Shown one piece after another: positions 16,291-18,671 of a stretch of 64,000 bases of DNA. Origin of the DNA: a virus; IMG/VR virus record IMGVR_UViG_3300009081_000009, positions 1 through 64,000 of that record; one strand, written 5' to 3'. The position numbers were made by a program, and so were the translations under genes. The number at the start of each line of letters is the position of its first letter. The first letter of the stretch is position 1. The notes below the pieces were generated by a model. It did no database searches. It was given only the letters and a program-made list of their open reading frames with translations, and had not been told where the DNA came from.

Positions 16291-16320
16291 AAAGGCGAGA
16301 GAAATCTCGCCTTTTTATTT
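16291..16320. terminator. Bidirectional intrinsic terminator
   Basis: AAAGGCGAGA-gaaa-TCTCGCCTTT followed by a T-run. Confidence 0.85.
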
Positions 16321-16977
16321 TATACGCATCGATTCAGTTTTTATTAAATGCTGAATTCCACTACTAGCGTTTAAGTTAACATAAGATGGATCTGTGACAT
16401 TCAATGATATCCATCTATCAGCCATAGCATAAAAACTATCACGTGTACCAATTATATCAGTTAATGCATCATGTAAGTTTCCACTTGGTTTTATATCAAG
16501 TGCTTCCATTATAGTACCTAATTTAACATTTGGTACATTTAATTTACCTGATTTTTTTAAAGGACGTGTCATATCCATCAAATCATATGATATCTTGGTA
16601 CTAAAATAATATTCCAAATCCACTTCGTTAGCGTTTTTATGTTTTTGCCAAAATGATGATAAAAATCTCTTATCAAATGGAACATTCTGTCCAGCAAATA
16701 TAAATCTAGGTTGACCCTTTACAACATGCGAATCTAATATATTTTTTAATCCAATGAATGCTTCTCTGGGAGGTGGAAATGTTTTCAATTCCTCTACGGT
16801 CTTTCCAGTCACTTTTAACGCATCTTTACTAATGGCCCAAAAATTAACAGGAGAACATATAAAATTAAAAGACTCTAATATTTCGCGATTTTCAGTGACT
16901 AATCCAGCAATCTGAATTATATCCTGACGCTTATCGTCGAATCCTGTTGTTTCGGTATCAATAAATATTACTTTCAT
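16315..16977 (-). CDS. DEDDh 3'-5' exonuclease (DnaQ/epsilon-like)
   Basis: FIDTETTG, GQNVPFD, HDALTD motifs. Confidence 0.9.
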   Translation of the reverse strand: MKVIFIDTETTGFDDKRQDIIQIAGLVTENREILESFNFICSPVNFWAISKDALKVTGKTVEELKTFPPPREAFIGLKNILDSHVVKGQPRFIFAGQNVPFDKRFLSSFWQKHKNANEVDLEYYFSTKISYDLMDMTRPLKKSGKLNVPNVKLGTIMEALDIKPSGNLHDALTDIIGTRDSFYAMADRWISLNVTDPSYVNLNASSGIQHLIKTESMRIK

Positions 16978-17073
16978 AAAATAAATATAGCATTATTTAA
17001 ACCATTGGACTAAAAAATTATGTAATAATCTATATTAATTACATCAAAGGATGTTGAGTAACATCCGTTTATT

Positions 17074-17427
17074 ATGAAGGTATATATGTATTTAGATTAC
17101 GAAAAGAAAGAAATTATAACCAGAATATTCACAAGTCCTGATATAGCTATAATTAAAATAAATAATAAATCAAAACCAAAAACTTGGGGACAAGCTAAAT
17201 ACTGGTTTGACAAAGCATCAAATAATTTAAATCTAGATCCTGATTACTATAAAACAATCGGTTGGGATGAATGGAATGATTTCATGGAAGGTGATAGACC
17301 AGATGATGAAATCTGGCTATTTAAGTTAGAACCAAATAACAACTTCGTTCCATATTCAGAAGGATTCTTCCGTGTCAGAAATGATGAACCAGTTAATTAT
17401 CTGAATCTAAGTGAAATTGATAATTGA
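17074..17427 (+). CDS. Hypothetical protein
   Basis: 117-aa ORF whose stop overlaps the 3' end of the convergent tRNA-Gln. Confidence 0.55.
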   Translation: MKVYMYLDYEKKEIITRIFTSPDIAIIKINNKSKPKTWGQAKYWFDKASNNLNLDPDYYKTIGWDEWNDFMEGDRPDDEIWLFKLEPNNNFVPYSEGFFRVRNDEPVNYLNLSEIDN

Positions 17428-17494
17428 CCTAGCTGGGATCGAACCAGCGTACTTCGGGTCAGAGCCGAATGCACTACCTCTATGCTATAGGTCA
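17424..17494 (-). tRNA. tRNA-Gln(CTG)
   Basis: Cloverleaf TGACCTA...TTCGG-CTCTGAC-CCGAA...GCTGG-TTCGATC-CCAGC-TAGGTCA; U1-A72; CCA not encoded. Confidence 0.92.
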
Positions 17495-17502
17495 TCATTA
17501 TA

Positions 17503-17585
17503 TTGTCCATGTAGGAGTCGAACCTACAGTATCCTTTCGGATGCCAGATTCAAAATCTGGTGAGCTACCATTACTCTAATGGACA
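17503..17585 (-). tRNA. tRNA-Gln(TTG) with atypical long variable arm
   Basis: CCAGA-TTTTGAA-TCTGG anticodon arm; variable arm ATCC-GAAA-GGAT; U1-A72. Confidence 0.88.
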
Positions 17586-17590
17586 TCATA

Positions 17591-17663
17591 TTGTCCGTGC
17601 TGGACTCGAACCAGCATCCTTGTGCTTCAAAGGCACCTGCTCCACCAATTGAGCTAACGGACA
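17591..17663 (-). tRNA. tRNA-Gln(TTG)
   Basis: TGTCCGT acceptor, GTGC-CTTTGAA-GCAC anticodon arm, GCTGG-TTCGAGT-CCAGC T arm. Confidence 0.92.
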
Positions 17664-17669
17664 TCAAAT

Positions 17670-17759
17670 TTATTTATCACATTTAGAACACTTAATTTCA
17701 TTATTATAAGTGAAATATAATAATGAACCACATCTATCACACATCTTTACATAATACAT
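17670..17759 (-). CDS. 29-aa C4 zinc-ribbon microprotein MYYVKMCDRCGSLLYFTYNNEIKCSKCDK
   Basis: Strong SD GAGGTG; CxxC-x13-CxxC; fills the gap between terminator T3 and the first tRNA-Gln. Confidence 0.7.
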   Translation of the reverse strand: MYYVKMCDRCGSLLYFTYNNEIKCSKCDK

Positions 17760-17776
17760 ATACACCTCTATATACG

Positions 17777-17804
17777 AAAAGAACTCTTGCTTCTGCAAGA
17801 GTCC
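17777..17804 (-). terminator. Attenuator terminator T3 upstream of the tRNA-Gln block
   Basis: GGACTCTTGC-AGAA-GCAAGAGTTC-TTTT. Confidence 0.8.
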
Positions 17805-17827
17805 CTAATTTATTTGACATAGCAACA

Positions 17828-17890
17828 TCAATCAGGTGGTCTAGCAGAGCTATCCATTACTTGTTGTTGCTGTTGTTGATTTGTCTTCAT
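17828..17890 (-). CDS. Leader peptide L3 MKTNQQQQQQVMDSSARPPD (Gln sensor)
   Basis: Six consecutive Gln codons (CAA CAA CAG CAA CAA CAA); ATG at the predicted +1 of a consensus promoter; followed by T3 and three tRNA-Gln. Confidence 0.85.
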   Translation of the reverse strand: MKTNQQQQQQVMDSSARPPD

Positions 17891-17896
17891 ATTACT

Positions 17897-17925
17897 AATA
17901 TAGTTCTTTTTTAGTGTTTTGTCAA
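17897..17925 (-). promoter_or_regulatory. Sigma70-type promoter driving leaderless L3
   Basis: TTGACA-N17-TATATT, with ATG 6 nt after the -10 box. Confidence 0.85.
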
Positions 17926-17945: not shown

Positions 17946-18017
17946 TGATCCCACAGGAAATCGAATCCTGCTCCACGGATTAAAAGTCCGTTGCTTAACC
18001 TTCCAAGCTCTGAGATC
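17946..18017 (-). tRNA. tRNA-Lys(TTT), divergent (G8, 4-nt variable loop)
   Basis: ACGGA-CTTTTAA-TCCGT anticodon arm; CAGGA-TTCGATT-TCCTG T arm. Confidence 0.85.
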
Positions 18018-18550: not shown

Positions 18551-18671
18551 ATATAAAAAAGTCACTTTCATCAGTATTTTCACTAAATCGAGATAATCCC
18601 ATTTTTCTATCCTCAAGTAAACTAAGCTACCACTATGCATCTAACTTATAGGTCTAGATACTTGACCTTTA

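What the first reader, a model, noticed from the sequence alone, without database searches (positions are those of the whole stretch)
17777..17925. Attenuator 3: leaderless poly-Gln leader ending in RPPD, under its own consensus promoter
TTGACA-N17-TATATT puts the ATG at about +1, so the mRNA would be leaderless. The peptide has six Gln in a row and uses both CAA and CAG, matching the TTG and CTG tRNAs downstream. The Gln-codon segment AGCAACA can pair with TGTTGCT just past the stop. An alternative CCTGATT/AATTAGG helix overlaps only the base of T3, so the switch is less clear than in attenuators 1 and 2. The terminal Arg-Pro-Pro-Asp resembles Pro-Pro/RAPP-type slow-translation motifs and could set a pause (inference).
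Basis: partly seen in the sequence, partly recalled or inferred. Interest (0 to 1): 0.85.

Follow-up and report, generated by a model that had tools for sequence, protein, structure and literature searches.

The report
Glutamine-codon switch gating phage tRNA genes
An uncultured giant T4-like phage puts its three glutamine tRNA genes behind a 20-codon test gene with six glutamine codons in a row and a switchable transcription stop, so it probably makes these tRNAs only when ribosomes read glutamine codons slowly; I found no paper describing this trp-operon-style control for tRNA genes.

Summary
On the minus strand there is a perfect TTGACA-17-TATATT promoter. Six bases later comes an ATG opening a 20-codon ORF with Gln at codons 5-10, then a 12-bp hairpin with a U-run. 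A small Zn-ribbon ORF and three tRNA-Gln genes follow.

- **Not chance.** This is the only run of six or more Gln in all six frames of the 165-kb record.
- **Part of a set.** Seven other leader units in the genome match their downstream tRNAs. The observed pairing is the best of 40,320 permutations.
- **Recurs elsewhere.** Other phages carry the same layout before tRNA-Gln arrays: L001, L048/L244 and L122. The terminators of L048 and L122 differ in sequence from this one.
With a ribosome on the Gln codons, a 14-bp interrupted antiterminator forms (-18.2 kcal/mol; 9 of 2000 shuffles match it). With the ribosome at the stop codon, the terminator arm is free.
- **Leaderless start is plausible, not proven.** The spacing is kept in two relatives, and an RNA ligase gene in this genome has the same geometry.
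- **The RPPD pause idea is not supported.** Pro-Pro is absent in L048 and L122, and those codons form the antiterminator strand.

All evidence is computational. This scan has noted the same principle on other giant-phage genomes.

The parts
17897..17925 (-). Promoter P3: TTGACA (17925-17920), 17-nt spacer, TATATT (17902-17897), preceded by an A-rich AAAAAGT-type upstream element
   Evidence: One search gives an 11 of 12 consensus match. It belongs to a genome-wide promoter class with 43 sites at one mismatch or fewer, several of them in front of other tRNA leader units. The promoter is kept in L001 and L048.
17828..17890 (-). Leader ORF of 20 codons plus TGA. The ATG lies 6 nt after the -10 box and has no Shine-Dalgarno sequence, so the transcript would start at or next to the A of AUG.
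   Evidence: The ORF, its start and its stop are kept in L001 (20 codons), L048 (21 codons) and L122 (22 codons). The antisense ORF is not kept.
17861..17878 (-). Sensor: six consecutive Gln codons (CAA CAA CAG CAA CAA CAA), nt 13-30 of the transcript. Region 1 (AGCAACA, nt 20-26) lies inside it.
   Evidence: It is the only run of six or more Gln in six frames of 165 kb. The codon string in L048 is identical, although the search that found L048 did not fix the third bases.
17821..17827 (-). Region 2: UGUUGCU directly after the stop codon. It pairs with the Gln codons in untranslated RNA (helix 1:2).
   Evidence: One search shows it in the minimum-free-energy fold. In L001 it reads UGCUGUU, which is still a perfect 7-nt complement of the Gln run, shifted by one codon. 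L048 and L122 have analogous helices between the Gln run and UUG-like repeats.
17831..17848 (-). Left strand of the antiterminator (nt 43-60; codons Ser15-Ala16-Arg17-Pro18-Pro19-Asp20)
   Evidence: Ribosome-mask folding and the shuffle test.
17792..17809 (-). Right strand of the antiterminator (nt 82-99). It overlaps the 5' arm and loop of the terminator.
   Evidence: One search shows three helices: 55-60/82-87, 49-51/91-93 and 43-47/95-99. The total is 14 bp at -18.2 kcal/mol.
17775..17806 (-). Intrinsic terminator T3: a 12-bp stem (nt 85-96 with 101-112), an AGAA loop and a UUUUCGU tail
   Evidence: -16.6 kcal/mol. It is identical in L001. L048 and L122 have terminators of different sequence at the same place.
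17670..17759 (-). 29-codon CxxC...CxxC (Zn-ribbon-like) ORF with an AGAGGTG Shine-Dalgarno sequence, lying on the read-through transcript
   Evidence: It is kept in L001 with 4 amino-acid changes and is absent from L048. Pfam gives only weak matches below its cut-offs.
17424..17663 (-). Regulated genes: tRNA-Gln(UUG) 17591-17663, tRNA-Gln(UUG, long variable arm) 17503-17585 and tRNA-Gln(CUG) 17424-17494
   Evidence: (60.9-65.7 bits). No promoter-like site lies between T3 and these genes.

Best explanation
This is a ribosome-mediated (leader-peptide) transcription attenuator that controls the phage's own tRNA-Gln genes.

1. Transcription starts at promoter P3, at or next to the A of the leader AUG (inferred).
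2. A ribosome translates the 20-codon leader (inferred).
3. If charged tRNA-Gln is plentiful, the ribosome runs through the six Gln codons to the stop. There it covers nt 43-75, so the terminator's 5' arm has no upstream partner. T3 forms and the transcript ends before the Zn-ribbon ORF and the three tRNA-Gln genes.
4. If charged tRNA-Gln is scarce, the ribosome stalls on nt 13-30. This breaks the helix between the Gln codons and the segment after the stop, and leaves nt 43-60 free.
5. The free strand pairs with nt 82-99 as an antiterminator. T3 cannot form, and RNA polymerase reads on into the tRNA-Gln genes.
6. The new tRNA-Gln relieves the stall and closes a negative feedback loop.
7. Untranslated RNA, including read-through from the upstream tRNA-Lys genes (which would lack a 5'-terminal AUG), folds into helix 1:2 plus T3 and terminates.

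Shown here are the sequence elements, their conservation, their statistical link with tRNA-Gln and the mutually exclusive folds. Inferred are the start site, translation of the leader, termination at T3 and the response to Gln-tRNA levels.
For: 1. **Anatomy.** All the parts are present in the right order.
2. **Specificity.** This is the only run of six or more Gln in six frames of 165 kb, and it lies 215 nt upstream of the only tRNA-Gln genes.
3. **System context.** Eight tRNA blocks in this genome are each preceded by a short ORF, seven of them enriched in the amino acids of the tRNAs behind them (the Pro unit is weak). The observed pairing scores best of all 40,320 permutations.
4. **Switch.** With the ribosome on any Gln codon, the nascent RNA folds into an antiterminator that holds 8 of the 12 bases of the 5' arm (-18.2 kcal/mol). 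With the ribosome at the stop, none of the 12 is held. Shuffles of nt 43-84 give -9.4 +/- 2.6 kcal/mol, and only 9 of 2000 do as well.
5. **Close relative L001.** The unit is 95% identical while the neighbouring protein is only 70% identical. The few changes keep both helices: UGUUGCU becomes UGCUGUU, still complementary to the Gln run, and a GA-to-UU change comes with a 1-nt insertion that restores CCUU/AAGG pairing.
6. **Other phages.**
   - L048/L244 has a 21-codon leader with six Gln, a different terminator and three tRNA-Gln genes.
   - The metagenome contig L122 has seven Gln, a third terminator and four tRNA-Gln genes.
   - Both show the same stalled-versus-stop switch in folding.
   - In the two collection scans whose hits carried tRNA genes downstream, the only Gln-run ORFs that did were these two, and the tRNAs were all Gln.
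7. **Whole set conserved.** The L048 phage carries the full set of matched leaders for Leu/Ser, Asn, Glu, Lys, Gln and Pro.
8. **Leaderless geometry.**
   - The spacing from -10 box to ATG is 6, 6 and 7 nt in G000, L001 and L048, with no Shine-Dalgarno sequence.
   - A 385-aa T4 Rnl1-type RNA ligase gene in the same genome starts 6 nt after a perfect promoter, with an in-frame stop 24 nt upstream.
9. **Antisense ORF excluded.** It is frameshifted in L001 and interrupted by stops in L048.
Against: - There is no experimental or RNA-level evidence.
- T3 has the weakest U-run of the set (four U, then CGU), so its efficiency is uncertain.
- The antiterminator is interrupted by two internal loops and is only about 1.6 kcal/mol more stable than T3. 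Its advantage would be kinetic.
- How many 5'-arm bases are paired upstream is not unusual in itself: 42% of shuffles reach 8 of 12. Only the energy stands out.
- With the ribosome on the last Gln codon, its footprint ends just at the first base of the antiterminator.
- Leaderless translation is inefficient in some bacteria, and the host is unknown.
- Only three independent lineages are available, too few for formal covariation statistics.
- I picked the leader ORFs for the permutation test by eye, taking the ATG ORF that ends nearest upstream of each terminator. The Pro unit is weak.
Confidence: 0.72

Rival explanations
1. This is a translation-coupled attenuator that does not sense Gln specifically. 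The leader reports general translation capacity or ribosome-polymerase coupling, and the Gln run is incidental or serves only as an unstructured, CA-rich landing site for ribosomes on a leaderless RNA.
For: CAA repeats are unstructured and favour initiation (general knowledge). The single CAG supplies the only G-C pair of helix 1:2, so an RNA-level reason for the codon string exists. Untranslated RNA is predicted to terminate.
Against: Gln runs recur in three lineages only in front of tRNA-Gln arrays. The sister units use Lys, Asn, Glu, Tyr or multi-amino-acid leaders that match their own tRNAs. A generic coupling sensor would not need that.
Confidence: 0.1
2. The promoter-to-T3 segment is a free-standing gene for a small RNA of about 115 nt or a 20-residue peptide, with its own function. 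It merely sits upstream of the tRNA-Gln genes, which are expressed by constitutive read-through or another promoter.
For: A promoter and a terminator about 115 nt apart also describe a small-RNA gene. Attenuator-derived leader RNAs and peptides can act in trans (papers PMC7968998 and PMC7298713, listed; titles and abstracts only).
Against: No promoter-like site lies between T3 and the tRNAs, so the tRNAs depend on read-through. The alternative folds are mutually exclusive and depend on ribosome position in all four units, even though the sequences are unrelated. There is no Rfam match. The peptide after the Gln run is not conserved across lineages.
Confidence: 0.08
3. The ORF arose by chance, next to an ordinary terminator or insulator hairpin separating the Lys and Gln tRNA transcription units.
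For: In a genome with 33% G+C, a 20-codon open frame is not rare in itself (roughly one in four, my estimate). The hairpins could also serve as processing sites.
Against: The Gln run is unique in the genome. The permutation result is 1 of 40,320. The same layout recurs in L001, L048/L244 and L122. A terminator placed about 115 nt after its own strong promoter makes no sense unless it is conditional.
Confidence: 0.04
4. The regulated stall is at the Arg-Pro-Pro-Asp end of the peptide (an EF-P-dependent or arrest-peptide pause), not at the Gln codons, as the first reader suggested as an add-on.
For: Pro-Pro followed by Asp is a known slow context without EF-P (general knowledge; topic of PMC8129111, listed). 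A ribosome held there would cover nt 40-75 and favour termination.
Against: The last residue is Phe in L001. Pro-Pro is absent in L048 (which ends Ala-Arg-Val-Val-Gly) and in L122. The order is A-R-P-P, not R-A-P-P. These codons are the antiterminator's left strand, and the one coding change in L001 comes with a compensating insertion on the pairing strand.
Confidence: 0.06

Closest known systems
Classical leader-peptide transcription attenuators of enterobacterial amino-acid operons (trpL, hisL, pheL, leuL, thrL, ilv leaders)
   Same: A short ORF with a run of codons for the sensed amino acid. A helix 1:2 in untranslated RNA. An antiterminator (2:3) that forms when the ribosome stalls. An intrinsic terminator (3:4). 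The default state is termination.
   Different: The regulated genes are tRNA genes, not biosynthetic enzymes, so the product directly replenishes the sensed molecule. The element is in a phage. The leader appears to be leaderless. No Rfam leader family matches. I know of no Gln-specific leader attenuator.
pheST (Phe-tRNA synthetase) attenuator with the pheM leader in E. coli (from general knowledge)
   Same: Leader-peptide attenuation applied to a component of the translation machinery for the same amino acid.
   Different: It controls a synthetase, not tRNA genes, and it is cellular rather than viral. I checked E. coli K-12 pheV directly: the roughly 100 nt upstream of this tRNA-Phe gene holds a promoter but no leader ORF.
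Polycysteine leaderless short ORFs that act as Cys-responsive attenuators in mycobacteria (bioRxiv 10.1101/834739)
   Same: A leaderless 5'-AUG short ORF with a run of one amino acid's codons, where the stalled ribosome remodels downstream RNA structure.
   Different: There the stalled ribosome unmasks a ribosome-binding site (translational control) of cysteine-metabolism genes. Here the alternative structure is an intrinsic terminator in front of tRNA genes.
T-box riboswitches
   Same: They sense the supply of one specific tRNA and switch between terminator and antiterminator.
   Different: A T-box binds uncharged tRNA directly and needs no ribosome or ORF. It controls synthetase, biosynthesis and transport genes. 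No T-box match was found.

Membership tests
Ribosome-mediated leader-peptide transcription attenuator | Short ORF with clustered codons for the sensed amino acid | tested here: met
   Six consecutive Gln in a 20-codon ORF. It is unique in the genome and conserved in L001, L048 and L122.
Ribosome-mediated leader-peptide transcription attenuator | Intrinsic terminator between the leader and the regulated genes | tested here: met
   A 12-bp stem of -16.6 kcal/mol followed by UUUUCGU. The U-run is short, and termination itself was not assayed.
Ribosome-mediated leader-peptide transcription attenuator | Antiterminator that excludes the terminator and forms only when the ribosome sits on the regulatory codons | tested here: met
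   In-silico ribosome masking gives 8 of 12 arm bases held when stalled and 0 of 12 at the stop. The energy exceeds shuffles, with 9 of 2000 as good. Three relatives behave the same way.
Ribosome-mediated leader-peptide transcription attenuator | Helix 1:2 pairing the regulatory codons with the segment around the stop codon | tested here: met
   AGCAACA pairs with UGUUGCU. L001 keeps the helix with a register shift through two substitutions. L048 and L122 have analogous helices.
Ribosome-mediated leader-peptide transcription attenuator | Leader is translated, and read-through responds to charged-tRNA supply | not testable with these tools
Ribosome-mediated leader-peptide transcription attenuator | Regulated genes are biosynthetic or synthetase genes for that amino acid (the usual targets) | tested here: not met
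   Downstream lie a 29-codon Zn-ribbon ORF and three tRNA-Gln genes. This is the novel point rather than a mechanistic mismatch.
Leaderless mRNA | Transcript starts at, or within a base or two of, the A of an AUG start codon, with no Shine-Dalgarno sequence | tested here: inconclusive
   The geometry fits: the -10 box is followed by 6 nt, and the spacing is kept at 6 and 7 nt in L001 and L048 with no Shine-Dalgarno sequence. A long RNA ligase ORF has the same geometry. The start site was not measured.
T-box riboswitch | Match to the T-box covariance model (specifier loop, T-box bulge) | tested here: not met
   There is no Rfam match at the gathering score or up to E = 10.
Pro-Pro / RAPP-type translation arrest peptides | Conserved arrest motif (R-A-P-P, or poly-Pro in a fixed context) at the stall site | tested here: not met
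   The order here is A-R-P-P. The last residue varies (Asp or Phe), and Pro-Pro is absent in L048 and L122.

The most novel reading that the evidence does not exclude
The Gln unit is one channel of a phage-encoded, amino-acid-resolved tRNA-on-demand system. Each tRNA block is switched on only when ribosomes report a shortage of that charged tRNA. That could happen after host tRNA-cleaving defence nucleases act, after host tRNA decays late in infection, or from a codon-usage mismatch. The leaderless design would mean that only transcripts started at P3 are read and can escape T3. The phage also carries a T4 Rnl1-type RNA ligase, an enzyme known for repairing cleaved tRNA, which fits a conflict fought over tRNAs.
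Probability: 0.3. Interest if true: 0.9.

Novelty: new variant of a known kind. Interest (0 to 1): 0.8.

Why it matters
Phage tRNA genes are usually treated as constitutive passengers that adjust codon usage or replace host tRNAs destroyed during infection. A leader-peptide attenuator in front of them would mean the phage measures decoding speed for one amino acid and makes the matching tRNA only when needed. That is a direct feedback loop between translation and tRNA supply.

It would extend the classic trp-type attenuation mechanism to a new class of targets (RNA genes) and to viruses. It would give a Gln-specific example. It would also link the mechanism to leaderless initiation.

The idea is easy to test with a roughly 150-bp synthetic fragment. 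The element could serve as a compact, codon-specific sensor of tRNA availability. It could also report on tRNA-targeting anti-phage defences.

Tried and rejected
- **Cultured relatives.** DNA search of the phage collection found only tRNA-level similarity. The portal protein is at most 27% identical to T4-like phages. No cultured relative is available.
- **tRNA-Gln exact-word scan.** It found only the L001 record.
- **Known RNA families.** No Rfam leader, T-box or other family matches. The only hits are noise far below the gathering scores.
- **Literature.** Six searches found no description of leader-peptide attenuation of tRNA genes. This is not proof of absence, because subscription journals are mostly not held.
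- **My recollection about E. coli pheU/pheV.** I thought these tRNA-Phe genes might have an attenuator-like leader. The 1985 paper was not readable, and direct inspection of pheV in K-12 shows no leader ORF.
- **Antisense ORF.** The 63-codon plus-strand ORF with a poly-Leu stretch is rejected: it is frameshifted in L001 and stopped in L048.
- **Arm-pairing count as a statistic.** The number of 5'-arm bases paired upstream is not discriminating, because 42% of shuffles reach it. Only the energy is.
- **Zn-ribbon ORF.** Pfam gives only weak hits below its cut-offs.
- **First version of the folding script.** I redid it from coordinates.

Full report
**Context**

The window is the first 64 kb of a 164,708-bp IMG/VR virus record (33% G+C, CheckV completeness 39%, so the full genome is probably far larger). 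It encodes a T4-type portal, a baseplate wedge protein, an SbcC-like nuclease subunit and helicases, but it is only about 27% identical to cultured T4-like phages. The record carries 57-58 tRNA genes in five clusters, largely sorted by amino acid. The finding lies on the minus strand, between four tRNA-Lys genes and three tRNA-Gln genes.

**Observation**

- Promoter: TTGACA (17925) - 17 nt - TATATT (17897), an 11 of 12 consensus match.
- Start: six bases later, ATG at 17890.
- ORF: 20 codons, with Gln at codons 5-10 (five CAA, one CAG) and the ending Arg-Pro-Pro-Asp-TGA.
- First pairing: AGCAACA inside the Gln run is the exact complement of TGTTGCT just after the stop. This helix appears in the minimum-free-energy fold (-34.6 kcal/mol, z = -2.76).
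- Terminator: T3 is a 12-bp stem with loop AGAA followed by UUUUCGU (nt 85-112 from the ATG).
- Downstream: a 29-codon CxxC...CxxC ORF preceded by a Shine-Dalgarno sequence, then tRNA-Gln(UUG), tRNA-Gln(UUG) and tRNA-Gln(CUG).
- No promoter-like site lies between T3 and the tRNAs.

**Is it chance?**

No.

- The Gln run is the only run of six or more Gln in all six frames of the record, which holds just two runs of four or more.
- The unit is one of eight. Each tRNA block is preceded by a short ORF, seven of them enriched in the amino acids of the tRNAs behind them (Tyr/Met/Phe, Lys, Gln, Leu/Ser/His/Cys/Trp, Asn/Arg, Glu and an eight-amino-acid block). The eighth, the Pro unit, is weak. Seven of the eight are followed by a hairpin with a U-run.
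- I scored the fraction of leader residues that belong to the downstream tRNA set. The observed pairing of leaders with blocks is the single best of all 40,320 permutations.
- One caveat applies: I chose the ORFs as the ATG frame ending nearest each terminator, by eye.

**The switch**

I folded the leader with the ribosome footprint masked.

- With the A site on any Gln codon, the nascent RNA (before the terminator's 3' arm is made) forms an interrupted 14-bp antiterminator.
- CCUGAU (nt 55-60) pairs with AUUAGG (nt 82-87).
  - AGA (nt 49-51) pairs with UCU (nt 91-93).
  - UCUGC (nt 43-47) pairs with GCAGA (nt 95-99).
  - The structure has -18.2 kcal/mol and holds 8 of the 12 bases of the terminator's 5' arm, plus 3 loop bases.
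- With the ribosome at the stop codon, none of the 12 arm bases has an upstream partner, and T3 (-16.6 kcal/mol) can form.
- Without a ribosome, helix 1:2 and T3 form together.
- Dinucleotide-preserving shuffles of nt 43-84 give -9.4 +/- 2.6 kcal/mol. Only 9 of 2000 match the observed sequestration and energy together. The sequestration count alone is not unusual.
The antiterminator's edge over T3 is still small, and its advantage would be kinetic.

**Comparative evidence**

- *L001* (another IMG/VR phage; neighbouring protein 70% identical) has the same unit at 95% nucleotide identity over 285 columns. The differences cluster in codons 3-4, codon 20 and the segment after the stop.
  - UGUUGCU becomes UGCUGUU. 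It is again a perfect 7-nt complement of the Gln run, shifted by one codon.
  - GAU (Asp) becomes UUU (Phe), together with a 1-nt insertion on the partner strand that creates CCUU/AAGG pairing.
The only hit with tRNAs downstream was L048.
  - L048 has a 21-codon ORF with six Gln and a TTGACA-16-TATATT promoter whose -10 box ends 7 nt before the ATG.
  - Its terminator has a different sequence, and three tRNA-Gln genes start 127 nt after the ATG.
  - L244, from a different IMG/VR record, carries an identical unit.
- *A metagenome scan* added L122: a 22-codon ORF with seven Gln, a third unrelated terminator and four tRNA-Gln genes. Its upstream region looks like a longer A-rich leader rather than a leaderless start. 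This is my reading of the sequence.
- All of these units show the same stalled-versus-stop behaviour in folding.
- The L048 phage also carries matched leaders before its Leu/Ser/His/Trp/Cys, Asn, Glu, Lys and Pro blocks.
- The antisense 63-codon ORF of G000 is frameshifted in L001 and stopped in L048.

**Leaderless start**

- The -10 hexamer is followed by 6 nt (G000, L001) or 7 nt (L048) and then ATG, with no purine-rich Shine-Dalgarno sequence. The usual start position for sigma-70-type promoters is the seventh or eighth base after the hexamer (established knowledge), which would be the A of the AUG.
- The same genome uses strong AAGGAG-type Shine-Dalgarno sequences elsewhere, so the absence here is meaningful.
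- A 385-aa ORF (a T4 Rnl1-type RNA ligase, PF09511, 86 bits) starts 6 nt after a perfect promoter. An in-frame stop lies 24 nt upstream, and there is no alternative start.
- The Pro and Tyr leaders have ATGs 7 nt after a -10 box. In L001 the Tyr leader ATG lies 6 nt after a perfect promoter.
- This makes a leaderless leader plausible (I put it near 0.55), but no start site was measured.
- Leaderless sensory short ORFs have a precedent in mycobacteria, where they control translation rather than termination (10.1101/834739).

**RPPD**

- The Pro-Pro motif is not kept in L048 or L122, and the residue after it differs in L001.
- The codons for Arg-Pro-Pro-Asp are nt 49-60, which is the left strand of the antiterminator. 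RNA pairing is therefore enough to explain their conservation between G000 and L001.
- A pause there would favour termination and is not excluded, but nothing here supports it.

**Comparison with known systems**

The mechanism is that of the classical leader-peptide attenuators. What differs is the target (tRNA genes whose product relieves the stall), the viral setting, the Gln specificity and the probable leaderless start.

- No Rfam family matches.
- Six literature searches found no description of such control of tRNA genes.
- E. coli pheV has no leader.
- Earlier notes of this scan describe the same principle in this genome and in several other giant phages, also without a published precedent. 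I re-tested the units of this genome myself, but not those of the other genomes.

**Verdict**

The attenuator reading is well supported computationally (0.72). The leaderless start is plausible. The RPPD pause is unsupported. I class the element as a new variant of a known kind of regulator, of high interest because it is simple to test and changes how phage tRNA genes are viewed.

Noticed in passing
window 17503-17585 (minus); also L001:15075-15157 and L048:1657-1742: The middle tRNA-Gln(UUG) is 83-86 nt long and has a long variable arm (a 4-bp stem with a GAAA loop), which is unusual for tRNA-Gln. The feature is kept in all three phages. Other over-long tRNAs in the record include Asn (124025-124109), His (102298-102380) and Ile (133813-133900).
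   Followed up: partly
G000 151850-153007 (plus), locus L248:151-1305: A T4 Rnl1-type RNA ligase (PF09511, E = 3.8e-24) whose ATG lies 6 nt after a perfect TTGACA-17-TATATT promoter. It is a candidate leaderless mRNA, and the enzyme family is known for repairing cleaved tRNA.
   Followed up: partly
window 17670-17759 (minus): A 29-codon CxxC...CxxC mini-ORF with a Shine-Dalgarno sequence lies between T3 and the tRNA-Gln genes. It is kept in L001 with 4 substitutions and is absent from L048. Only weak Pfam zinc-ribbon hits were found.
   Followed up: partly
window 18551-18602 (minus) and L048:298-350: In front of the tRNA-Phe genes, a Shine-Dalgarno sequence precedes an ORF that ends in Phe-Phe-Ile and runs into the tRNA gene. 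It is conserved at the peptide level between G000 and L048, but I could not find a terminator hairpin. This unit is unlike the others and remains unexplained.
   Followed up: no
window 17946-18017 (minus): A fourth tRNA with a UUU anticodon (Lys) is found by Rfam (52.8 bits) but missed by ARAGORN.
   Followed up: no
L001:12400-14700: In the relative, the tRNA array is interrupted by two long ORFs with HNH/homing-endonuclease-like features. The Lys leader unit is missing, and the stretch after the Tyr leader looks like an interrupted tRNA.
   Followed up: no
G000, 43 sites (for example 104243, 120736, 123741, 131207, 146002): A very uniform promoter class, AAAAAGTT-TTGACA-N17-TATATT(GTAT), drives the tRNA leader units and many protein genes. 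It resembles a host sigma-70 early-promoter set.
   Followed up: partly
window 16315-16977 (minus): An RNase T/DEDD-type exonuclease ORF (PF00929, E = 9.6e-17) lies just downstream of the tRNA cluster, beyond a bidirectional hairpin at 17049-17066.
   Followed up: no
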